Of a DNA stretch of 64,000 bases, positions 23,386 through 64,000 are shown piece after piece. Positions within the stretch are counted from its first letter, which is position 1; every line of letters begins with the position of its first letter. A model generated the notes under the pieces. The model was not told the origin of the DNA. It searched no databases and was given only the letters and a program-made list of their open reading frames with translations. This DNA is from Eledone cirrhosa (taxonomy: Eukaryota), in assembly GCA_964016885.1 (NCBI GenBank), contig CAXHJY010001128.1:7117-71116 (forward strand), written 5' to 3'. The position numbers and the translations under genes are program-made.

Positions 23386-23523
23386 CGTAATATCGAATCT
23401 ACGAGATTTTGATATTATTTATTTTGTGAACAATACCTTAACATCTGTACGAGTAGCTGGTTTGAAAAGAAACAGCTGAGAGAATTCTGACTGGATATGG
23501 CTGGTTTAAATGTTAAAGGGTCA
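23386..23523 (-). mobile_element. Partial copy of the TTAA-type MITE found at 29.15 and 29.5 kb
   Basis: Aligns to ~29584-29729; ends TTTAAATGTTAAAGGGTCAA. Confidence 0.7.
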
Positions 23524-24559: not shown

Positions 24560-24650
24560 GGGATGTTTGTATTGAACATCTATAAAATAGGACAGCTTGG
24601 GGATAGAACCCAAGCCTGAACACAATGCCCCTTTACATTTCAGTGTGTCT
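24473..24650 (+). mobile_element. Possible Tc1/mariner (pogo/Tigger-like) left end
   Basis: TA|CAG..TCCCATATCT..AAATGCTTCGGACTAGAAGT..TTGGGGATAGAACCCAAG resembles Tigger-type terminal sequence from memory; no right end found. Confidence 0.4.
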
Positions 24651-24670
24651 GTGTAATATACATACATACA

Positions 24671-27580
24671 TAGTCGTAGGCAAGCGTCTTAGCTATAAGC
24701 TATTCTGGGTAGGTAAGGATGATGGGTTAGAGGGAGTAGGCATTTTCCTGGCTGAGAAATGGATCAATAAGACAATAGAGGTAGTTCGAGTTAGTAATCG
24801 AATAATTAAGCTTAGATTAGTTGTAGGTAGGAGACTACTGACAATCATCTCGGTCTATGCTCCCCAAGCAGGCCTAGGCAAAGATGAGAAAGACTGCTTT
24901 TATGAGCAACTTTTGCAAACAACCACAATGACAGAGGACGGAGACATCGTTATGCTAGCAGGAGACTCCAATGGTCATGTTGGACAGCTCCAGGATGGTT
25001 ACACTGGGGTACATGGTGGGCACGGTTACGGTTCAAGAAATGAAGAAGGAGCGAGACTTCTTGAATTTTGTGATGCAAGTACATTGACTATTTGCAACAC
25101 AAACTTCCAGAAACCTGCCAACCACCTAATAACATACAAATCTGGTGAGCACATAAGCCAGATTGACTTCCTGCTAGTTAGGCAGTGGGACAGGCAGATA
25201 GTGTCTAATACCAAGGCATACCCTGGGGAAGAATGTACCCCACAGCATAGGTTAGTTGTTAGTGATATCTCAGTAAGCAAGAGATGGAATGAGACATATA
25301 GGAAGGTGTGGAGAAGAAAGGTCTGGAAGCTAAAAGACCTTTCACTAAAATTCAAATTTAGGAAAGCCCTTCAAGATGTATATGACGAAAAAGAAGACGA
25401 TTTAGAGACGTATGACATAGATAATAACTGGAAGTTCTTACGTGACAACTTGCTGAAGGCTACTGATGAAACCTGTGGCTGGAGCAGAGCTCCAACCAGA
25501 CAGAGAGTGACCTGGTGGTGGAACAGCAGTGTAGATAAGGCTATTAGAGACAAAAGACTAGCATGGAAGGCTTGGAATAAGGGTGGGAGTAGGGAAGAAT
25601 ATACAGCCACTAAGAGAGAAGCTAGACGTCAGGTGTACTTAGCACGCAGGGAGGCAGAGAGTAGGAGGTTTGCCAATGTTCTGCGACGGGAAGATCAGAG
25701 GCGTGCGGTGTTCCACATTGCAAGGCAGTGTGTCAATGCAAATCAGGATGTTGTTGGTGATAAATGTGTCCGGGATGATGCCGGTGTACTTAGTGTCACG
25801 AATGACCAGAAAAAGGAGGCCTGGAAATGTCATTATGAGAGACTGATGAATGTGGAGAACGAATGGGAGAGAGAGAAATTACCCTTGGTAGATCCGACAG
25901 AGGGACCAGCTATTGAGATTGACGAATATAGGGTCCAAGAGGCGATTAGGGAAATGAAAAATGGTAAGGCTGCCGGACCATCGGGAATAGTTGCTGAGAT
26001 GCTGAAGGCATCAGGGGACGTAGGCACTAAACTGGTTGCACGCATAATCAATCAGGCTATATATGGTGGTGTCATACCCAAAGACTGGTGCAGCAGTATT
26101 CTCATAAATTGCTACAAAGGTAAAGGGGATGCTTTGGAGAGGAGCAATTATAGGGGTATAAAACTGATAGATCAGGTTATGAAAGTGGCAGAAAGGATTT
26201 TAGCACAGCTAATTAGAGAAAGGGTCAAACTAGATGAGATGCAGTTTGGTTTTGTGCCTGGGAAGAGTACAACAGATGCCCTCTTCTTGGTGAGACAAAT
26301 GCAAGAGAGGTTCTTAGAGAAGAATAAGCCACTATACTTAGCCTTTGTTGACCTAGAGAAGGCCTTTGATAGGGTACCCCGATCTGTCATCTGGTGGTCC
26401 CTAAGGAAGCTGGGTGTTGAGGAATGGCTTGTAAGGACAGTGCAAACTTTGTACAGAGGTACTCTCAGTAAAGTCAGGGTAGGAATGGAGTTTAGTGAGG
26501 AATTCCAGATACAAGTAGGAGTACATCAGGGTTCGGTCCTCAGCCCGCTCTTGTTCATTATAGTCCTCCAAGCCATAACAGAGGAGTTTAAGACTGGCTG
26601 TCCATGGGAACTTCTCTATGCTGACGATCTGGCTCTTATGGCAGAATCAGTAGAGGAGCTAGAGAATAAATTCCGGCTATGGAAACAGCAGTTGGAAGCA
26701 AGAGGACTGAGAGTAAATCTAGCTAAGACAAAAGTGTTGATGAGTAGAAAAGAGGACAAAACCCTGATTCCGTCAGGGAAATGGCCATGTTCGATATGCA
26801 GAAAAGGAACTGGCATAAATTCTATAAAATGGTCCTGGGTACACAAGAGATGTAGCGGGATAGCAGGCAAACTAACAGGTAGGGAGAAATATGTATGCAG
26901 TAGATGTACAGGGAAATTAGACAGTAGAAGTCGCACTGATAGACACATTTTTCAAATGCGAGAGGGCGCTATAGAAGTGGTGGATAGCTTCCGGTACCTA
27001 GGAGATCAGATTAGCATGGGAGGAGGGTGTTCCGGGCATAGTATCTAGAATAAGGACGGGTTGGAAGAAGTTTAGGGAGCTGCTTCCTCTGTTGACGAAG
27101 AAGGGTTTCTCCCTGCGTACGAAAGGCCGGTTGTATGATGCCTGTGTGAGGAGCGCGATGCTGCATGGTAGTGAGACATGGGCAGCTACCGCAGAAGATA
27201 TGCGACGGCTGGAGAGAAATGAGGCAAGCATGCTCCGTTGGATGTGCAGTGTAAATGTGCGTGAACGACCCAGCATAAATGTGTTGAGAGAGAAACTGTG
27301 TCTGAGAGGGATAGAATGTAGTGTACGGGAGAGGAGACTGAGGTGGTATGGACATGTGATGCGCATGGAGGATGACCGATGGGTGAAGAAGTGCCAGGAA
27401 ATGCCAGTTGAAGGAAGACGTGGTAGAGGTAGACCACGAAAAACATGGGCGGAGGTGGTGAGAACAGACCTCAGATCATTGAAGCTCACGGTGGAGATGA
27501 CGAGGGACCGTGACGAGTGGAGAGATGCTGTGCTGAATAAGACCCGTCCCACCCTTGCAAGCAGGGAAAAGCGGACGTAA
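24671..27580 (+). pseudogene. APE endonuclease-reverse transcriptase ORF of the RTE LINE (frameshifted)
   Basis: Two abutting ORFs (807 aa + 162 aa) give a colinear RTE ORF; the first ~15 codons of the called ORF are flanking DNA. Confidence 0.9.
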
Positions 27581-32645: not shown

Positions 32646-32653
32646 CAATAATA

Positions 32654-33565
32654 TCTATATATATAAAACTGAGGATGTCTGTGTGTGTGTGTGTGTGTTT
32701 GAATCCCTAACCCTCGAGAAGCACCCAACCGACTGTTTTCAAACTTTACACATGTAATACTTATGTTTCAGGGAGTGTTCTGAGCAAAAAAAAAATTTCA
32801 AATTTTCAATGCCCTAGGGACCACATTTGGCGATTTAGCAATCTCTCTCTATAATTCTTAGTCTTTCTCTTTTTAGATACATACATACATATAACGTCGC
32901 GCCCTTATAATATCTGTCTGTATGTCTGGCTGTCTGCATTATGTCACTTCCCTGAGGATGTCTGCCTGTGTGTGTGTCTGTGAGTTTGAATCCCTAAAAC
33001 TAGAGAAGTACCCAACCGATTCTTTTCAAACTTTACACGTGTATTACTTATGTTTCAGGGAGTGTTGTGCACATAAAAAATTCAACTTTTTGATCTCCTA
33101 GGGTCCGCATTAGGTGAAAAACTGCGTTTTTAAAGCCTTTTAGGGGTCTTTTGAGGCGTTACGTCGGACCAATTTCCTTGAAATTGTAATTATGTATTAG
33201 TCAGTCTCTTCTTCATACCGTGAACAAAGAAAATCCAACTTTTTAATGACCCGGGGCTCGCATTAGGTGAAAAACTTCATTTTTTCAGCTTTTTGGAAGC
33301 GTTACTTCTAGCCGATTTTCCCGAAATTTCAAGGCATATTATGCACATAAAAAAATTTATTTTATGATCCCCTAGGTGAAAACCTGCATTTTTCCTGCTT
33401 CATCGAGGAAAATCTTAAAGATTATCCAGCCATCAGAGTATTCGGTTTATTTTATTTACATATTGTCCCAAGCATGCAGTTTTTCCACGATTAGGTCTGT
33501 TGGTGGCCCGCATCCCCCCCCCCCCCAAATACCTTATCCCATGCAACGCCGGGTACCACAGCTAG
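32654..33565 (+). mobile_element. Non-autonomous Helitron
   Basis: A|TCTATATATATAAAACTG start; subterminal hairpin CCCATGCAACGCCGGG; CTAG|T end; no TSD. Internal duplication 32669-32835 vs 32952-33115. Confidence 0.85.
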
Positions 33566-50869: not shown

Positions 50870-53800
50870 ATGGGGATCTTAACCTTCTCGCTAACTACCC
50901 AATATCCCTCCCACCCGCCCCCACGCACCACCATTATAACGTGGGCCAATCATAAGTCAGAGGCCTATGCTATCGCTTACCTGATTGCCTTTCATGATGG
51001 ATAGACTACGGAATTCTGGAGAGTTTGAAAAGAAAAAATTTGGACACTCAGTGACAATGCCAAAGATAAAGACAAATTCACCTCATGGACGAGAATGCAA
51101 GGACTCCTCCTCTTTGTTTCGGCCGCGGATGGCTAACATACCCCCCCCCCCCCCTGCACCCCACCGCTCCCACCCTCCAAACGCAATCCAAAACTTCAGA
51201 GTTGGTACCATGAATGTAGGCACCTTAAAGGGTCGCTCTAACGAGGTTGTAGAAATGCTTGAACGTAAGGAGGTCGATGTCTGTTGTATTCAAGAGACCA
51301 GGTGGAGGGGAGGGTCTGCTAGATTCATCGTGGGTAAAGAACGATGCTATAAGCTTTTCTGGGTGGGAAATGACAATGGGCTGGGTGGAGTAGGAATCAT
51401 GGTAGCAGAAAAGTGGGCAGATAAGATAATAGACGTAAATAGAGTGAACGACAGAATAATGAAAATAAGACTTGTCCTCAATAGAACTACTGTGACAGTA
51501 ATATCTGCGTACGCACCCCAATCCAGACTGCCCGGCACTATAAAAGACAGATTCTATGAGACACTGATGCTCACTACCTCCCAAATAACTGACAGTGACT
51601 ATATAATTATTGCTGGCGACCTAAATGGTCACGTTGGACAACATTGTGACAGCTATGATGGAATCCATGGAGGCTATGGGTTTGGTACTAGAAATGAGGA
51701 AGGCTCCAGAATCCTGGAATTCTGTGACGCAAATAACCTAACTATCTGTAACACTAACTTCAAAAAACGAGACAATCACTTGATCACCTATGGATCGGGG
51801 AACACACAAGCCAGGTAGATTATATCCTTACCAGGAGACGTGACAGAGTGTCTGTCGTAAACACTAAATCCCTCCCTCATGAAGAATGCACCTCTCAACA
51901 TACTCATAATTAGCGACCTCATAGTCAGGACAAGACGTATTCGACAACAGAAGAGGACTATCCTCAGGAGAAAATTATGGAAATTAAGGGAGCCCGCAGC
52001 CAGTAATAAATTTAAAAGCATATTACTTGATGCTTTTGATAGTAAGGAAGAGCAATTAGTCGTACAATATAGAGGAACAGTGGGAATTCCTGAAAGCTAT
52101 CCTGCTGAAGGCGACAGATGAAACCTATGGCTGGAGCAGGCCTATAGGCAGGAGGAGAGTAACTTGGTGGTGGAACATTAAGGTGGAGAGGTCAATCAAG
52201 GCCAAAAAGCAGGCTTGGAAAGCATGGCGAGATGGGGGAAGTAGAGAAGACTATCAAGTGGCCAGGAGGGAAGCTAGGAGACAAGTGTACTTCGCAAGAA
52301 GGGAAGCAGAGGAAAGAAAGTTCAAGCATGTTCTACAACGCGAGGACCAAAAACGTGAGGTGTTCAGGATTGCTAGGCAATGTGTCAAGGAAAGCAGTGA
52401 TATTGTCGGGGAGAAGTGTGTCCTTAATGATGATGGTGTACTTGCCATCACTGACACTGATAAGAAGGTAGCTTGGAAGTGTCACTACGAAAGGCTACTA
52501 AATGAGGAGAATAATTGGGAGAAAGACAGTCTCCCTCACATCAACCCAATAGAGGGACCAGCAGTGTAAGTTGAAGGTAGTATAATAAGTAAGGCGATCA
52601 AAGACATGAAGACGGGCAAGGCGGCCGGGCCTTCGGAAATAGTTGCCAAAATGCTGAAAGCATCTGGAACGGTGGGACACACTATGGTCACCCAGATAGT
52701 AAACCAAGTCATACAGAATGGGGTCGTTCTGAAGGACTGGCACAGCAGCATCATCATTAACTGCTACAAGGGTAAAGGTGAAGCCCTAGATAGGGGAAAC
52801 TATAGAGGCATTAAATTAATTGACCAGGTCATGAAGGTTGCAGAAAAAGTAATAGCGCAACTAATCAGAGAGCGAATTGATCTAGATGAAATGCAGTTCG
52901 GGTTTGTGTCAGGTAAAAGTACAACAGACGCTCTTTTCATTGTACGACAACTACAGGAGAAGTACCTAGCTAAAAGTAAATCCCTATACTTAGCTTTTGT
53001 TGACTTGGAGAAAGCCTTCGACAGAGTCCCCCGTTCCATTATCTGGTGGGCTCTTAGAAAACTAGGTGTTGATGAATGGCTTGTGAGAGCTATACAAGTC
53101 ATGTATAAAGAAACAGTCAGCAAGGTTAGAATTAACAAAGAATATAGTGAAGAGTTTAGCGTAAAAGTTGTTCATCAGGGCTCCGTCCTTAGCCCCCTAC
53201 TATTTATTATTGCCCTTCAGGCGATAACAGAGGAGTTCAAAACCGGCTGCCCATGGGAACTCCTATATGCAGATGATCTAATGCTCATAGCTGAATCAAT
53301 GGCTGAATTAGAGAAGAAATTCCAAACATGAAAGCATGGCCTAGAATCAAAAGGCCTTAAAGTTAACTTGTCTAAGACTAAAGTTCTAGTTTGTAGGAAG
53401 GAAAATAAGGCACCGGTCCCATCTGGGAAATGGCCATGCTCAGTGTGTAGGAAAGGAATAGGTAGAAACTCCATTTTATGTCCCAAATGCAAAGATGTAG
53501 TGGGATCACAGGTAAGCTAACTAAGAATATAGATTTTATATGTGGCTGGTGCTCTGGTGCAATAAGTAGCAACAAGTGCCCACAGAATACTAACTCATTC
53601 TATTGCACAGATGGTTCTATAGAAATAGTGGACAGCTTCCGTTACCTGGGTGACAAAATCAGCAGTGGGGGAGGGTGCTCTGAAAGTACAGTAGCTAGAG
53701 TCAGAACGGGATGGAAAAAGTTCAGAGAGCTTATACCACTATTGGTCGCTAAAGGGTTTCTCTAAAAATGAAAGGCAGGCTGTATGATGCCTGCATACGA

Positions 53801-54586
53801 ACAGCAATGTTACATGGCAGTGAGACCTGGGCATTGTGTGCAGAGGATATACGCAGACTGGAGAGAAACGAAGCTTGCATGCTCCGCTGGATGTGTAATA
53901 GTAATATACGTGAACGGCAAAGCATAAACGAACTAAGGGAGAAATTAGGAATAAGAGGGATCAGATGTTGTTTACTCGAGAGAAGACTACGTTGGTATGG
54001 TCACGTGATGCGCATGAAAGACGACAGCTGTATAAAAAAGTGCAGGGCAATAAAAATAGACGGTAGCCACGAAGTAGGCAGACCCAGAAAAACCTGGGAT
54101 GACTTGATAAATTCCGACCTCACACACTTACACCTCTCCAAGACAATGTCACTGGACCGAGATCCTTGGCGCTACACAGTAATAGAGAAGACGCGCCTTA
54201 CCTAAGTGCAAAGTGAAACCTACTACAGTCAGGAGGCACCTCTAACAAAATACACCCCCGTCCCACTACCCCCACCCCATCCACACCACCCCTTTCAATG
54301 TAAAGTTGTTGGTACCACAACATCCAGCCCGAAACAAATGAGGTCGTGTAGGTGTCAAGACAAAAAAACACAGTCCACGCTGTAATGTGGCCGTGTAGGT
54401 AACACGGTAAAAACCTCCCAGTCCACACTGTAAATGTGGTTGGTGTTAGGAAGGGCATCCAGCCGTAGAAAACCTGCCAGACAGTCCTATGCCTCAACCA
54501 CTCTTGCTTCAGGTGGGAAAACTCCCGTCCAAACCCATGCAAGCGTGGAATATGGACGTTAAACGATGATGATGATGATGATGATC
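50870..54586 (+). mobile_element. Near full-length but inactivated RTE LINE (family B) with ~360-nt 3'UTR and (GAT)n tail
   Basis: Complete APE N-terminus (VGTMNVGTL, VCCIQETRW, GDLNGHVG) and RT (QFGF, DLEKAFD, HQGSVLSPLLF, YADD), broken by frameshifts and stops (~51815, ~51905, ~52065, 52567, 53329, ~53490, ~53760). ORF ends at 54205; tail 54565-54586. The 5' boundary is uncertain. Confidence 0.93.
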
Positions 54587-54621
54587 TATACATTTATATA
54601 TATATATTTATATATATATGT

Positions 54622-54985
54622 ATATACGATATTAATAAATGGAAACTATATTTATAAAACCATATTTATTTCATTATACATATTTCAGGGATACCAAATT
54701 AAAATATGGTATGCCTTCATCAGACATAATACAATATATAAACAGTTTTATAAATAATTTTGACGTTCCCTATTAAATGCAACCATTATTTTTGGAAGCT
54801 GTCTGGATAGTGAAATGTTTATATTATTTTATTAGTTATATTGTTAAGCACAATTAGAAAAAGACGGAGCGAAAAAACGGAGAGAGAGAAGGAGAGAGAA
54901 AGAAGGTATTTGGTATCCCTGAAATATGTATAATGAAATAAATATGGTTTTATAAATATAGTTTCCATTTATTAATATCGTATAT
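54622..54985 (-). mobile_element. Miniature Penelope-like pseudo-LTR insertion with 78-bp inverted ends
   Basis: 54622-54699 is the reverse complement of 54908-54985. Both match the outer ends of the pseudo-LTRs at 57590 and 61725. Confidence 0.8.
54661..54738 (-). ncRNA. Type I hammerhead ribozyme
   Basis: UAUUAUGU CUGAUGA AGGCAUACCA-loop-UGGUAUCCCU GAAA UAUGU AUA| AUGAAAUA; core at 54723-54717 and 54686-54683. Confidence 0.8.
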
Positions 54986-55068
54986 CTACTCCAAAAACTT
55001 GTCGAGTGCTTTATATCAGTTATAAAATATTTACTTGTTGTATCCCAACAATTTTAAATAGAACTTTT

Positions 55069-55191
55069 GCATATATATGTATATATATATATATGTATTT
55101 ATATATATATTTATATATATATATATATGTATTTTTATATATATATTTATATATATATATATATGTATTTATATATATGTATTTATATATA

Positions 55192-55261
<70 letters not shown>

Positions 55262-55455
55262 GGAACAAGTAAGATTGGGTAATAGGAACAAGTAAGACCC
55301 CGACGGTTGAGCTCAAGCCGTCGGGGTCTTGTTCCTATTACCCACTCTACTACACTAAGTATTGAGTACTTTGGAGCGTTATGGTCCACCTGGTTCCTTA
55401 CTACATTTCCTTCGTTATATATTTATATATATATATATATATATATTTTTATATA

Positions 55456-55497
<42 letters not shown>
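55069..55497. repeat. (TA)n/TTTA microsatellites flanking a palindromic island (55260-55415)
   Basis: Direct reading. Confidence 0.9.
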
Positions 55498-56019
55498 GAT
55501 ATAAATACGGCTCCTTAATTGGAGAGCTATTTCTGTTGAAGGGAATTTGACTGCTATTTCTAGTTGTCGAAAACCTATTCACGCCACTGAAATGAAGCTG
55601 CTGTGATGTGTAGAGGCAACACGTGGTAGCGGATAGTTGAAGATTTGAACTCGCTGTGTGAGCATGGATCGCTGGACATTATTCTTCCTTGTTGACAATC
55701 CAATAATATCCACTTTCCGTGACTTACCATCTGATTAATTGGTGAAATATATTTCTTTAATGGGATATATACAGGGAAGATTAATCATACTTAAAGGTAT
55801 ATGTTTATTTGTACCCAACTAGCCATGCGTGGTTACACGCTTGTAAAAATTATCTCCTGTGATTATCCATGTATATATATGTTAATAAATTTCTAGTTAT
55901 TATAAAATGCTCGGACATATCTTTGACCTTATTTCCATGCGATATGGCGCACGCCGTTATGGCACGACACCCACAATTTCGATTTAGATTAAATTCATTT
56001 AATTTATCTTAATTTTGGA

Positions 56020-56069
56020 TATAGATATATATATATTTATATATATATATATTTATATATATATATATT

Positions 56070-56102
<33 letters not shown>

Positions 56103-56195
56103 ATATATTTATTTATATATATATATTTATTTATATATATATTTATATTTATATATATATATTTATATATATATATATTTATATATATATATATT

Positions 56196-56252
<57 letters not shown>

Positions 56253-56253
56253 T

Positions 56254-56284
<31 letters not shown>

Positions 56285-56331
56285 ATATTTATATATATTT
56301 ATATATATATATATTTATATTTATATATATT

Positions 56332-56362
<31 letters not shown>

Positions 56363-56451
56363 ATTTATATATTTATATATATATATTTATATATTTATAT
56401 ATATATTTATATATATATTTATATATATATTTATATATATATTTATATATA

Positions 56452-56496
<45 letters not shown>

Positions 56497-57590
56497 ATAT
56501 TTATATATATATATATTTATATATATATATATTTATATTTATATATATATTTATATATATATATATTTATATATATATATATTTATATATATATATATAT
56601 ATATTTATATATTTATATATATATATATATATATTTATATATTTATATATATATATATATATATTTATATATTTATATATATATATATATATATTTATAT
56701 ATTTATATTTATATATATTTATATATATATATATTTATATATATATTTATATATATATATATTTATATATATATATATTTATATATATATATTTATATAT
56801 ATTTATATATATATATATTTATATATATATATTTATATATATATATTTATATATATATATATTTATATATATATATTTATATATATATATATTTATATAT
56901 ATATATTTATATATATATTTATATATATATTTATATATATATTTATATATATTTATATATATATTTATATATATTTATATATATTTATATATATATATAT
57001 TTATATATATATTTATATATATATATATTTATATATATATTTATATATATATATATTTATATATATATATATTTATATATATATTTATATATATTTATAT
57101 ATATATATATTTATATATATATTTATATATATTTATATATATATATATTTATATATATATATATTTATATATATATTTATATATATTTATATATATATAT
57201 ATTTATATATATATTTATATATATATATATTTATATATATATTTATATATATATATATTTATATATATATTTATATATATATATATTTATATATATATTT
57301 ATATATATATATATTTATATATATATTTATATATATATATATTTATATATATATTTATATATATATATATTTATATATATATTTATATATATATATATTT
57401 ATATATATATTTATATATATATTTATATATATATATATTTATATATATATTTATATATATATTTATATATATATATATTTATATATATATTTATATATAT
57501 ATATATTTATATATATATATATATACATTTATATATTTATATATATATATATATACATTTATATATACATTTATATATATATATTTATAT
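56020..57590. repeat. (TA)n microsatellite with TTTA interruptions
   Basis: Direct reading; essentially only A>T interruptions. Confidence 0.97.
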
Positions 57591-57626
57591 ACAATATTAA
57601 ATAAATGGAAACTATATTTATAAAAC

Positions 57627-57705
57627 CATATCTATTTCATTATATATATTTCGGGGATATCATATTAACAATATGCTATGCCTTCCTCAGACAAAATACA
57701 ATATA
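57627..57705 (-). ncRNA. Type I hammerhead ribozyme in the 3' pseudo-LTR
   Basis: UAUUUUGU CUGAGGA AGGCAUAGCAUAUU-GUU-AAUAUGAUAUCCCC GAAA UAUAU AUA| AUGAAAUA; first stem II pair mismatched. Confidence 0.7.
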
Positions 57706-59137
57706 AACAGTTTTATAGATAGATAGATTCGACATACCGTTATAACACCGACTTGCATTTGAAGAGGTTAAGCTGGCAGTGAAAACATTTTACACAGAGA
57801 GAAAGAAAGATAGAAAAAAGAAAGAAAGACAGAAAACGAAGAAAAGGAAGAAAAAGAAGAAATGCATGGAACAAAATAGAGAGATGGAAAGATAGATAAA
57901 GAGAAGAACTTCATGTAAAGAAACAGAAAAAGATATATATATATATATAGAGAGAGAGAGAGGAAATAGAGATAGATACATATATATATAGAAAATTAGG
58001 TAGTGGGAGGTCATTTTGAGTAAATGTATCAATGATACATTTATTTATTTATTTATTTATTTAGCTCTAGTATTAATGTAAGGGAGATATATAGAGAGAG
58101 AAAAAAATATATAGAGAGAAAAAATAGCGAGAGAAAAAATTTAAAAATAGCCAGATATATTCGAGGCGTAAAAACCCTATATTTTAATGTATTAGTATTT
58201 ATAAAACTTCCACTATATTGTAAATATCAGTATTCCTGAATGAGACAAGTACCCATAGTGTGTGAAAATTAATTATCTTATGTTTAGTTTTTTAAAAAAA
58301 ATTCATATGTTTATGTAATAGCTATAAACATCCATGTGAATCCACATGAACAACTCTGCAAACTCTAAGTTCACGGAAAACATTCTCAATGTGGTATAAA
58401 AATTTGAGTATACATATATGTGTATTATTATTTCTGTCTTTACTCTAAAAGATTATCTATCAAGCAGAAATAGAAAGCAGATTTCAATATACTAATAAAA
58501 ATATATATCAGAAACAAAACTAAAAAAATAAATAAACAACAATAATAATAATAAGTAATAATAAAATAGAAAACTAACAAAATATTACGAAAGAATATTA
58601 CATATTAAAAATATTACATATTAAAAAAATATTACGTATTAAAAAATATTACGTATTAAAAAATTTAAAAAATTTACATATTAAAGATATTAAAAATAAA
58701 GATATTAAAAATAAAAATAAAAATAAAGAATATTATAAAATACTACAATAATAAAAAAATAAAAAATAAAAATAAAAATAAACCACAAAGATCAACCCTT
58801 CAAAATTAATTGACAATATATTGCCAAGTTCATTATAAGACAAAGCCAAAAATTATCTATCAAATCATATCTGGCAAAGATCATTTCAAAAAGTTTATGA
58901 TGTCCAATTAGGTCTACATGTGTTCTTATATTTAATATAGAAGTTTATCTAGTGTAAGGTTTATTCACAATATTTGGAGCATCAGCTTTTAGGGTAGCTT
59001 AATTTTTCATGAGGAATGTTTAAATAAAAATAAAATAAAAATAAACAATAAAAAGAATAAAAAGAAGGAATCAAAAATTTAGGAATCAAAAATTTATCGG
59101 CTAGTTTCCCATATAAATATAAATCAAACTAAATATA

Positions 59138-60788
59138 CTACATTTTAAATTTAAATTTATATTTAAACGTTGAGTTTAATCTATGTTTGCAACAACTGAA
59201 TAAATTTGTCCGTAGATTAAGGGAATTTTTAGATTTTAGTATAAAGAATATCTCCTCTGCGCAGAGGTCACATGTCTCAGAGGATGAATTAAAAGGAATC
59301 CCTCTTGAGACTATATTCCAAGCCGTCGAATATCTAACGTTATCTAGCTTAAGTTGCCATAGTACGCCTGATAGTGCCGTTGAAGATTTTTTACTTGGAT
59401 CTGTGAAAGAATTCTTGTGGTTATTATAGCAAAGTTTAAATTCCGTCGATGTGGAACCGACGTAGTTAAAAGAATTAGTCAGTATTAACATTACAATTGT
59501 ATACTATATTTTTAACTAAGCAGTTGTTATTTAACGGACATTTAGATCTATCTCTACAGTTACATTTGTTAACTTGTATATTATTTATGCTGTTATCACT
59601 AGGTTTTAAGTTCCTATTATTTATTCTATTGATATTTTGTGCTAAATTTTTGGTGGATGAGTAGGTTAATTTAATTGTATGTCTATTGAAAATTGAGTGA
59701 TATCTATGTGTTCTAGGGAAGCGATTATCAAGAGCTTTAAAAAATAGTTTAGCGATGTGGGTTTTAATGTTTAGTGAGAAAGGGGGGGCAAACCAAATTA
59801 TGTTCCTAGTTCTATTTCTTTTTGGCCTTTGGAATTATTGTAATGCTTTCTATTATAGTTGTTAAGGATGTTGCCGTAATTAAAAAAGTTGTTACTTTGT
59901 TTAGTTTGTCTATCATTATCTATGTACACAATCTTATCAGCATATCCTGCTCTAGCTAATGCTTCATTGTAGTATTGGGCTTTTTCGTCGAAAATCTTTC
60001 TATTCGACGAGATCCTAGAGATACGTTTTTGGACAGAGTTTACTATAGTGTTTTTGACAGATCTGGGGTGGTTAGAGTTAAAGTTTACATAGTTTAAGTT
60101 TTCATTCAACTTGTGAAAAGGATAGTGAAGACATGTGTTGAGATTTAATGTTATATCTAGGAAATTGACTATTCTATGGTTGTTTTCAATTTCTATTTTA
60201 AGATTAAAGTAATTAAAAAATTGTGTAATTTGTTTACATTTTCTATTTAGTTCAGAGTTATTATTATCAATAAGTAAAAGCATGTCGTCTCTATATAAAC
60301 CTCCGGTAGTACCGGGTATTTTCCTATGTAGCGAATTGATTAAAAATAAACCCACAAGGTCAGTTACCTGGGCTGAGTCGGATGATCCCATAGTAATGTC
60401 AAAATTGCTATCTCTATCTGCTCTGGTCCATAGTTGGTCATTAAATTCTATCAAAGTTTTCCTAGCCGATAATATAATATGCATTTCATTGCTAGTTAGG
60501 TCAGTATGTTTGAATGCGTAATTTAGTGCCTTATTTAGTAGATTAGGGGTAATAGAAGAATAATAGTTAGCTATATCAAGTTGAATAAACTTATTATTAT
60601 TGTTATATTTAATTTGCTTAAACCACTCAACGACTTCTCCAGTTCCCTTCCACAAGCTCAGGTTAGATAAACAATCCAAGTTCTTAATTTGCTGTATCAC
60701 CCTGTCAAGAATGTTTTTGCTTAATTTGCCCAGGTCCGATTTTGATGGTGCGATCAATCTAACTGGCAGGTCATTTTCAAAATTCCGC
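59138..60788 (-). pseudogene. Penelope-like RT + C-terminal GIY-YIG endonuclease (probably Nematis-type), two frameshifts (~59820, ~59480)
   Basis: RT: PVRLIAPSKSDLGKLSK, FIQLDIANYYSSI, FDITMGSSD.A, GLYRDD, VNFLDITL, YVNFNSNHP. Linker IIWFAPPFS..CNCR..CPL..CL. EN: NIVY..YVGST..FK..H..SF, CDLC..E, LN..CCKH. Clade label is from memory of motif patterns. Confidence 0.9.
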
Positions 60789-61613
60789 TTTTATTAGTAT
60801 ATTGAAATCTGGTCTATCTTTGCTTGATAGATAATCTTGTAGAGTAGAGACAGAAATAGTAATATTGACTCTATATACACATATATGTATACTTAAATTT
60901 TTATACCGCATTGAGAATACTTTCCGTGAACTTAGGGTTTGCAGAATTGATCATGTACATTCACATAGATGTTTGTAATTATCACATAAACATATGAATT
61001 TTTTAAAAAACTAAACATAAGATCATTAATTTTCACACACTGGATACATATCTCATTCAGGAATACTGATATTTGCAATGCAGAGGCTGGTTTTGTAAAT
61101 ACTAATACCTCTACATTAAAACAGAGGTTGGTACGCCTCGCCTGTGTCTGGATATTTTTGAATTTTCTCTATATTTTTTCTCTCCCTATATAACAGCTGG
61201 TTTTCCCTCCATATATTTCCCTTACATTAATACTAGAGCTAAATAAATAAATAAATAAATAAATGTATCATTAATACGTTATTCAACAGTCGTCCCACTA
61301 CCTAGCTTTCTATATATGTATCTATCTCTATTTCCTCTCTCTCTATATATATATATATATCTCTTTCTGTTTCTTTACATGAAGTTCTTCTCTTTATCTA
61401 TCTTTCCATCTCTCTATTTTGTTCCATGCATTTCTTCTTTTTCTTTTTCTTTTTCTTCGTTTTCTGTCTTTCTTTCCTTTTTTTCTCTCTTTTTTCTCTC
61501 TTTCTCTCTCTTTCTTTCTCTCTGTGTACAATTTTGTCACAACCAAATCAACCTTCTCAAATGCAAGTAGATGTTGTTACGGTATGTCGAATCTATTTAT
61601 CTATAAAACTGTT

Positions 61614-61691
61614 TATATTGTATTTTGTCTGAGGAAGGCATAGCATATTGTTAATGTTATCCCTGAAATATATATAATGAAATAAATATGG
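61614..61691 (+). ncRNA. Type I hammerhead ribozyme in the inverted pseudo-LTR
   Basis: Stem I 61621-61628/61677-61684; CUGAGGA 61629-61635; stem II 61636-61664; GAAA 61665-61668; predicted cleavage after 61676 (AUA). Confidence 0.8.
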
Positions 61692-61726
61692 TTTTATAAA
61701 TATACTTTCCATTTATTTAATATTGT

Positions 61727-62599
61727 ATATATATATATATAAAACTGTGGTTGTCTGTCTGTCTATCGATTTTTGGCACACATCTCCTCTTAGAATCTCT
61801 GACGGAATTGCACCGAAATTGCTATACTTGTACATTGAGCCCTAGCGAAGACATCGGAAAAAAAATATTTCAAATTGACCCACCCTATGTGACGAAATCG
61901 AATATAATGTATCGATTTTTGAGCGTAAGTTATCAGTTATTTCCCTTTGTTCTGTTTACATTGAGCGTCTTACGTAAAAAATTACGCTGGCTTTCTCAGC
62001 GTTTAAAATGACATTAACACAATACACGAACAGTTGTCGAGCCAGCAAAATATTGACCTGCAAAATTCATCAGTTCGAACACTAAGCTTCCGTTTTGCTT
62101 CATTTCCATTTAAAAGCATTTTAAAACAATATTTTTACTTGAAAACAAGTCTATTTAAAGACTCCGTAAAACAAGCAAATATTTCGTCGTTAGGCGTGCA
62201 GACACAGTCGTGCAGACACAGCCGTGCAGAGAGGTGATATAGGCGTGCAGACAGACAGTCGTGCAGAGAGGTGATATAGGCGTGCAGACAGACATAACTG
62301 ATAATTTGGTTACGCTAATGTTTTTCTCTGCGTTGCAGTGTTTACATTTTCGATCTTTGTTAATAAATAACCAGTGCAGTTTCTATCCCCATCATCCTCT
62401 TTTGTTATAACATTCGGGTTATCGTTATGTTTTCTTAACTTCATAAGGCATATTGTTGGTTGAGGGAATATTAATCAAAAACACCACATGCAAGTCTGCA
62501 CAGTAGACACTACAGTTTTTAAGCCAAGAAAGAAACTTAACATTGTAACTTTAACACAGCTACTGAGCGACCCCGAGCAACGCCGAGCTTTACTGCTAG
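61727..62599 (+). mobile_element. Non-autonomous Helitron inserted in (TA)n
   Basis: TATATATAAAACTG.. start like 32654; ends CCCGAGCAACGCCGAG..CTAG|T; internal GTGCAGA tandem repeats at 62191-62293. Confidence 0.8.

Positions 62600-64000
<1,401 letters not shown>

What the first reader, a model, noticed from the sequence alone, without database searches (positions are those of the whole stretch)
54661..61691. Family of three AT-rich hammerhead ribozymes with covarying stem II, an AUA cleavage triplet and a conserved C-C mismatch
Seen: copies at 54661-54738(-), 57627-57705(-) and 61614-61691(+) keep CUGANGA..GAAA..UA. Stem II pair 8 changes from C-G (54.7 kb) to G-U (61.6 kb) with both bases altered, while the loops diverge. 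All keep a C-C mismatch at pair 4. Stem III is only 2-3 bp and nearly palindromic (UAUAUAUA). Known: PLE pseudo-LTRs carry minimal type I hammerheads, often proposed to act as dimers. Inference: self-cleavage ~50 nt from the pseudo-LTR end processes the element RNA. The A-U closing pair of stem II and the long stem II are atypical.
Basis: partly seen in the sequence, partly recalled or inferred. Interest (0 to 1): 0.7.

Follow-up and report, generated by a model that had tools for sequence, protein, structure and literature searches.

The report
Hammerheads at Hydra-type Penelope element ends
The three motifs are real tail ends of a high-copy Penelope-like jumping gene, each folding on paper into a small hammerhead ribozyme predicted to cut only as a pair, a known arrangement with a few unusual letters.

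Summary
The three motifs are at the stated places. Two are the outward-facing ends of one 5'-truncated Penelope-like element whose protein carries Hydra-clade marks; the third ends a related short copy. Hammerheads near the 3' end, (TA)n targets and an inverted 5' partner are already published for that clade (PMC8557442). Reads from four runs show a high-copy family: no variant at 12 core positions, N7 free, 8 of 9 stem variants pair-neutral (p=0.04), and subfamily double changes at stem II pairs 2, 5 and 6 (thinly supported). A long stem II is common among relatives (10 of 28 hits). AUA and a direct A-U closing pair are rare in the clade, but AUA occurs in active natural hammerheads. Cleavage is untested, and all three copies keep the uncut motif. 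Side result: the two inverted arms appear to come from different master copies (15% versus 3% divergence). Earlier scan notes report similar head-to-head Penelope ends on other DNA. Verdict: new member of a known kind.

The parts
61602..61698 (+). Hammerhead copy c3 with extended stem I (core C3 at 61629, GAAA 61665-61668, predicted cut after 61676), near the outer end of the inverted arm
57619..57717 (-). Hammerhead copy c2 (C3 at 57690, predicted cut after 57641), sense to the ORF, at the element's 3' end; pairs 1 and 8 of stem II broken
54653..54752 (-). Hammerhead copy c1 (C3 at 54723, predicted cut after 54675) of a related subfamily; homology to c2/c3 limited to about 150-175 nt
54908..54985 (+). 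Inverted 78-nt partner arm of c1, 100% identical; holds only the 3' half of the hammerhead (starts in loop II)
54608..54907 (-). Short 5'-truncated copy (about 300 nt) ending in (TA)n
59138..60790 (-). 5'-truncated ORF: RT, linker with CxCX5C, GIY-YIG-type nuclease part with CxxC and CxH; three in-frame pieces (two frameshifts), no stop inside the aligned pieces
57576..59137 (-). Long low-complexity 3' untranslated region ending in the hammerhead and a 1.57-kb (TA)n-type array; 1,490 nt from nuclease match to core, against 78-495 nt in 19 related loci
60789..61741 (+). Inverted 5'-truncated arm, 84% identical to 58500-57576, joined head to head to the ORF with a 2-nt overlap and no (TA)n spacer

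Best explanation
These are the 3'-terminal hammerhead motifs of a high-copy Hydra-clade Penelope-like retroelement lineage, predicted to be weak ribozymes that would cut after AUA only when two copies pair through the 8-nt A/U palindrome of stem III. Shown: position at element ends, the clade marks of the protein, the core letters, and family variation that mostly keeps the pairs. Inferred: as a monomer stem III is 2 A-U pairs and the active fold is disfavoured; two copies (tandem or read-through transcripts of master elements, probably helped by the element's protein) form the active dimer and trim the element RNA from its co-transcript. Insertions are reverse-transcribed from RNA not cut at the 3' copy, since all three copies keep about 50 nt beyond the cut. 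The three copies here are passive genomic relics.
For: ORF 40-45% identical to P0001-P0004 over RT and linker (34-43% over the nuclease part), with CxCX5C, CxxC and CxH, the marks given for Hydra (PMC8557442 section 11). Its supplement lists sense hammerheads near the 3' end in 26 Hydra rows and one family, Penelope-13_HM, with a 966-nt inverted 5' copy and the motif on both strands. My descriptor finds 28 hits in 26 of 83 related loci against 2 hits in 20 shuffled sets. Family reads: no variant row at 12 core positions, N7 is G/T/A; 8 of 9 variants in paired positions other than pair 8 keep the pair, against 56% expected for transitions, p=0.042; loose-end consensuses read by eye give double changes at stem II pairs 2, 5 and 6 with C·C kept. 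The block differs 4/126 between the arms against 75/492 upstream (Fisher p=8e-5). The active dimer is 11.6-12.6 kcal/mol more stable than two active monomers, and c3's is 2.1 kcal/mol from the best fold. AUA is used by active natural hammerheads (PMC1636495). Minimal PLE hammerheads cut weakly and as multimers (PMC4209133).
Against: No cleavage data; no raw RNA reads were laid. Rfam showed no hit. The active fold is 4.6-12.0 kcal/mol above the MFE as monomer and 18.8 (c1) and 6.5 (c2) as dimer. Pair 8 is a purine-purine mismatch in a large subfamily and 11.1 is C (A·C) in 26% of X1 depth. Core invariance is not specific: 61686-61704 also has no variant row; 0 of 12 core against 17 of 85 other positions is about p=0.08 by hand. 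The double changes rest on few contigs (X4: 10 contigs, agreement 0.7, the 5' letters from fewer than half; X5: 1 contig). Variants count lineages, not independent events, only reads at least 80% alike to c3 were laid, and the stem I register tested was my own choice. HHR mutants did not affect insertion in vitro for an Anolis PLE.
Confidence: 0.7

Rival explanations
1. The fold is kept as a 3'-end recognition or RNA-pairing signal for the element's reverse transcriptase, and cleavage is vestigial or incidental.
For: All three copies keep the uncut motif; conservation runs evenly through the extended stem I and the last 40 nt, not only the core; suboptimal letters (AUA slowest of four triplets after transcription; A-U or A·C at 10.1-11.1); HHR mutants insert normally in vitro.
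Against: All 12 core letters invariant while N7 is free; the complete core is kept across relatives only about 40% alike in protein, which a pure binding site would not need.
Confidence: 0.17
2. The motif is an efficient monomeric hammerhead whose long stem II and bulged long stem I make a scaled-up tertiary contact.
For: Stem I extends to about 22 pairs with bulges and is conserved; the C·C mismatch is kept in 3 of 3 copies and in the subfamily loose ends.
Against: Stem III has 2 A-U pairs as monomer; loop II is the most variable part, which argues against a fixed loop contact; monomer active fold 4.6-12 kcal/mol above MFE.
Confidence: 0.08
3. The match is a chance core pattern in AT-rich repeat DNA, copied three times by descent.
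For: 82-nt pieces have unremarkable folding z-scores; no Rfam hit; two unrelated places match the loose pattern.
Against: Exact clade-typical position and strand, three closing stems, pair-neutral variation and double changes.
Confidence: 0.05

Closest known systems
Hammerheads of Hydra-clade Penelope-like elements (Craig et al. 2021, PMC8557442; e.g. Penelope-13_HM, Hydra-1_Obim)
   Same: Sense type I hammerhead near the 3' end; near-palindromic stem III; (TA)n targets; inverted 5'-truncated partner; protein linker CxCX5C with CxxC and CxH; H17 = A in 12 of 26 rows; Hydra-1_Obim has a 7-bp stem II closed by A-U after one extra base.
   Different: 16.2 is G in 26 of 26 published Hydra rows and 27 of 28 hits in relatives; here U15.2-A16.2 (AUA). 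All-A/U 8-nt palindrome; A-U directly after A9 (0 of 28 hits); internal C·C; 3' untranslated region about 1.5 kb. Different family from Hydra-1_Obim (by-eye comparison of protein and motif).
Minimal PLE hammerheads (Cervera and De la Pena 2014, PMC4209133)
   Same: Longer than usual helix II, small palindromic helix III, dimer-type, many dispersed single copies, some in opposite strands.
   Different: They report a highly conserved G10.1-C11.1 and an extra base after A9; here the best register is A-U, though the C-at-11.1 subfamily (c2) can take the G-C register. Helix I here is long, not 4-5 bp.
Poseidon PAc element of Anolis (Frangieh et al. 2024, PMC11167929)
   Same: Hammerhead inside the terminal repeat, upstream of the insertion end; genomic copies made from uncut RNA.
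   Different: There the ORF starts in stem II and cleavage was shown to be protein-assisted; here the motif lies 1.5 kb behind the ORF and nothing is tested.
AUA-cleaving viroid and satellite hammerheads: ELVd(+), sCYDV-RPV(+), cscRNA(-) (PMC1636495)
   Same: AUA before the cut.
   Different: Type III, stable 5-6 bp helix III, monomeric, in RNA replicons.

Membership tests
Hydra-clade PLE | Single ORF, RT followed by C-terminal GIY-YIG nuclease | tested here: met
   tblastn to P0001-P0004 in this order; Pfam itself gives no hit for the window pieces and only sub-cutoff RVT_1/GIY-YIG for P0001
Hydra-clade PLE | Linker CxCX5C; CxxC and CxH around the conserved E and N; no CCHH | tested here: met
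   CxCX5C, CxxC and CxH read in the translation; definition. Absence of CCHH judged by eye
Hydra-clade PLE | N-terminal RWK and DKT motifs | tested here: inconclusive
   This part is lost by 5' truncation; present in P0002-P0005
Hydra-clade PLE | Insertion into (TA)n | tested here: met
   3' ends at 57576, 61741 and 54608 run into (TA)n; the 78-nt arm at 54985 does not
Hydra-clade PLE | Phylogenetic placement with reference Hydra elements | not tested
   Tree holds no named references; the window groups with P0001 (100/99), both on long branches
Type I hammerhead ribozyme | Core CUGANGA, GAAA, UH with three stems, open end in stem I | tested here: met
Type I hammerhead ribozyme | G10.1-C11.1 closing pair of stem II | tested here: not met
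   A-U in c1 and c3, A·C (or shifted G-C) in c2; not strict in this clade: 13 of 28 hits in relatives have G·U or a mismatch there
Type I hammerhead ribozyme | Covarying stems across copies | tested here: inconclusive
   None valid among the three copies; pair-neutral variants p=0.042 and thinly supported double changes in reads
Type I hammerhead ribozyme | Self-cleavage leaving 2',3'-cyclic phosphate and 5'-OH | not testable with these tools
   No bench assay; the runs laid were contigs and DNA reads
Dimer-type minimal PLE hammerhead | Short palindromic stem III, stable only between two copies | tested here: met
   8 of 8 positions self-pair in all three; the centre variant gives G·U; dimer favoured by 11.6-12.6 kcal/mol
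Non-LTR retrozyme | Tandem short units each with a hammerhead, no ORF | tested here: not met
   Copies are dispersed or inverted and tied to a PLE ORF; definition

The most novel reading that the evidence does not exclude
The palindromic stem III is an RNA dimerisation site, like a retroviral kissing loop: it loads two element RNAs into one integration complex, each primes on one strand of the cut (TA)n target, and the two cDNAs join head to head. The 57.6-61.7-kb insertion would be its footprint, because its two arms come from different master copies, which the published self-priming model (PMC3846280) does not predict. This would give PLE hammerheads a job that needs no cleavage.
Probability: 0.17. 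Interest if true: 0.72.

Novelty: new member of a known kind. Interest (0 to 1): 0.25.

Why it matters
As a ribozyme it adds an AUA, all-A/U stem III variant to a clade already known to carry hammerheads: useful for ribozyme models (Rfam did not detect it) but not surprising. The more useful point is the open question of what PLE hammerheads do. A high-copy family with many subfamilies allows a simple genome-wide test: whether the two arms of inverted insertions come from the same or from different master copies.

Tried and rejected
Rfam scans: no hammerhead family among rows shown. Whole-window repeat search: swamped by microsatellites. No whole genome was available, so no genome-wide copy set or R-scape-type test. 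A family-specific DNA pattern found 0 matches in metagenome contigs; viral contigs gave no relative; no related locus resembles the block at DNA level (best E 0.09). Earlier-findings look-up by sequence: nothing. Pair 8 as covariation evidence: rejected. Shifted register (extra A, G10.1 with 11.1): possible for c2, but gives only 2 pairs before mismatches and fits the A37/U63 subfamily worse, so not preferred. Pile-up of ends at the cut site 61677: none among the loose-end rows shown (134 hidden), and contigs or DNA reads cannot show RNA ends. Zero depth beyond 61720 is not evidence of the element end (the tool skipped repeats from 61716). Runs with shares under 0.2 were not used as evidence. 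Post-insertion decay as the sole cause of the arm difference: rejected as unlikely (uneven divergence; no stop in 1,503 nt, P about 0.01-0.02 at 7-8%). Lunse et al. 2017 (PMC5785218) was not held; it may describe further variant PLE hammerheads that I could not compare.
Full report
Setting. The window is AT-rich animal-type DNA full of (TA)n arrays and RTE-like LINE pieces. No whole genome is held. The best protein relative of the ORF at 59-61 kb is named as an Argonauta hians protein (44%), so a cephalopod host is likely; this is inference.

Observation. The three cores are at 54723(-), 57690(-) and 61629(+). Pairing stem II from the base after A9 gives 10-11 positions with C·C at pair 4 in all three. 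The 82-nt pieces fold no better than shuffles; the 100-nt forms give z -3.5, -0.8 and -2.5. The MFE folds are not the active fold. Rfam shows no hammerhead.

Anatomy. An ORF on the minus strand, 60790 to 59138, matches P0001-P0004 in three in-frame pieces covering RT, linker and nuclease. It has CxCX5C, CxxC and CxH, the marks Craig et al. give for the Hydra clade (PMC8557442, section 11 read). It is cut at the 5' end and joined directly, with a 2-nt overlap, to an inverted copy of the element's last 950 nt (60789-61741 versus 58500-57576, 84%). So c2 is the sense 3' hammerhead and c3 its inverted partner; they cannot lie in one transcript. c1 ends a 300-nt truncated copy of another subfamily with its own 78-nt inverted arm (100% identical) holding the 3' half of the motif. 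The supplement of that paper (parts 1 and 2 read, plus one search; one figure page holds no text) lists Penelope-13_HM with a 966-nt inverted 5' copy and the motif on both strands: the same anatomy.

Family variation. I laid four of 23 listed runs on 61521-61800 (at least 80% alike, variants from 3%): 2,649, 441 and 44 contigs and 27,079 DNA reads. Summed depth over the hammerhead is hundreds of times that over 61521-61540 in X1, which shows many subfamilies sharing the end, but is no copy number. No variant row falls on the 12 core positions; N7 is G, T or A. The last stretch 61686-61704 is equally invariant, so this alone is weak (0 of 12 against 17 of 85, about p=0.08 by hand). Of 9 variants at other paired positions 8 keep the pair, against 56% expected (p=0.042; pair 8 left out, register mine, lineages not independent). 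The exception is 11.1 U to C (26% in X1). Loose-end consensuses, read by eye, give a subfamily with pair 2 A-U and pair 5 G-C (X4, 10 contigs, agreement 0.7, the 5' letters from fewer than half of them) and one with pair 6 C-G (X5, 1 contig), both keeping the C of pair 4 and the A of pair 1. Covariation is therefore likely, but not from the pair cited.

How unusual. Among 83 loci with related RT my descriptor found 28 hits (23 distinct) in 26 loci, against 2 hits in 20 shuffled sets (it missed c1 and gave one stray hit in the window). Stem II has 9-11 pairs in 10 of 28; the 10.1-11.1 position is G·U or mismatched in 13 of 28; A-U directly after A9 occurs in 0 of 28; 16.2 is G in 27 of 28 and in 26 of 26 published Hydra rows. 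So the long stem II is ordinary, and AUA with an all-A/U palindrome is a lineage variant. AUA is found in three natural active hammerheads and was the slowest of four triplets after transcription but second best during it (PMC1636495, abstract and passages). The tree (36 rows with long RT matches) pairs the window with P0001, both long branches, with no named references.

Mechanism. Nearest-neighbour energies favour the active dimer over two active monomers by 11.6-12.6 kcal/mol; c3's dimer is 2.1 from the best fold, c2's 6.5, c1's 18.8 (no tertiary terms). Cervera and De la Pena (PMC4209133, parts 1-2 of 4 read) saw no monomer and low multimer activity for a minimal PLE hammerhead. Frangieh et al. 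(PMC11167929, passages and second half of the main text) found protein-assisted cleavage, no need of it for insertion, and both DNA strands cut and extended. Here all three copies keep about 50 nt beyond the cut, so their templates were uncut at this copy (inferred from sequence). I commit to a weak, dimer-dependent ribozyme that trims master-element transcripts (0.7); a recognition or pairing role is the main rival.

Side result. The two arms differ at 75 of 492 sites in 60789-61300 and 15 of 81 in 61521-61601, but 4 of 126 in the terminal block. Of the 15, five have both alleles segregating in the family, two are c3 minority alleles and eight c2 alleles have no family row, whereas no c2 allele in the block lacks one (the Fisher test used 7 of 81, p=0.001). 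Decay after insertion would be even and would leave stops in the ORF (none in 1,503 nt). The arms thus likely derive from different masters. Arkhipova et al. (PMC3846280, passages) explain such inverted units by self-priming, which predicts identical arms, as in c1. A two-template event is about 55% likely here; sequential insertion, gene conversion or a mis-join remain open, and it is one locus. I found no paper proposing two templates (searches; library limited to open papers), nor one on this family. Lunse et al. 2017 was not held. Also seen: passages of PMC6765202, PMC6155905, PMC6431247, PMC11300833, and part 1 of 5 of 10.64898/2026.07.22.740005. Core numbering and the retroviral kissing-loop comparison are recalled.

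Earlier scan notes describe head-to-head Penelope ends and no visible role of the cut site in other genomes; they agree but are not independent evidence.

Verdict. Real feature, new member of a known kind, interest 0.25.

Noticed in passing
window 60789-61741(+) versus 58500-57576(-): The two inverted arms of one insertion differ by 15% upstream but 3% in the terminal block, so they likely come from different master copies.
   Followed up: partly
window 57720-59137: 3' untranslated region about 1.5 kb long and full of short low-complexity tandem tracts; 78-495 nt in 19 related loci.
   Followed up: partly
window 61727-61762 and 32651-32686: The flank beyond c3 resembles (89% over 36 nt) a repeat start at 32.65 kb followed by microsatellite; it recalls Helitron-type 5' ends (recalled, untested). 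Its first letters also match the 5' arm of the extended stem I.
   Followed up: no
window 61661-61710: Depth over the 3' half of the motif is 3-15 times that over the 5' half in all four runs: diverged subfamilies or many copies truncated within loop II, as the 78-nt arm is.
   Followed up: no
window 24607-27580, 50985-54205, 3327-3956, 22883-23418: Several RTE-like LINE copies (AP endonuclease plus RT); the one at 24.6 kb has an 813-aa open frame.
   Followed up: no
window 1-22000, 56019-57591, 62600-64000: Very long (TA)n-derived arrays, the first strongly G-skewed on one strand.
   Followed up: no
L080-L083: Hydra-type RT in contigs of genomes titled as bacterial MAGs, two with hammerheads; probably host DNA binned by mistake.
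   Followed up: no
L033:523(-): A minimal hammerhead with a 4-nt A/U stem III and AUA triplet, opposite to the Hydra-type ORF; probably from another PLE family.
   Followed up: no
L016, L023, L081: Short inverted terminal arms (98%, 87%, 96% identical) around Hydra-type ORFs; more cases for the arm-origin test.
   Followed up: no
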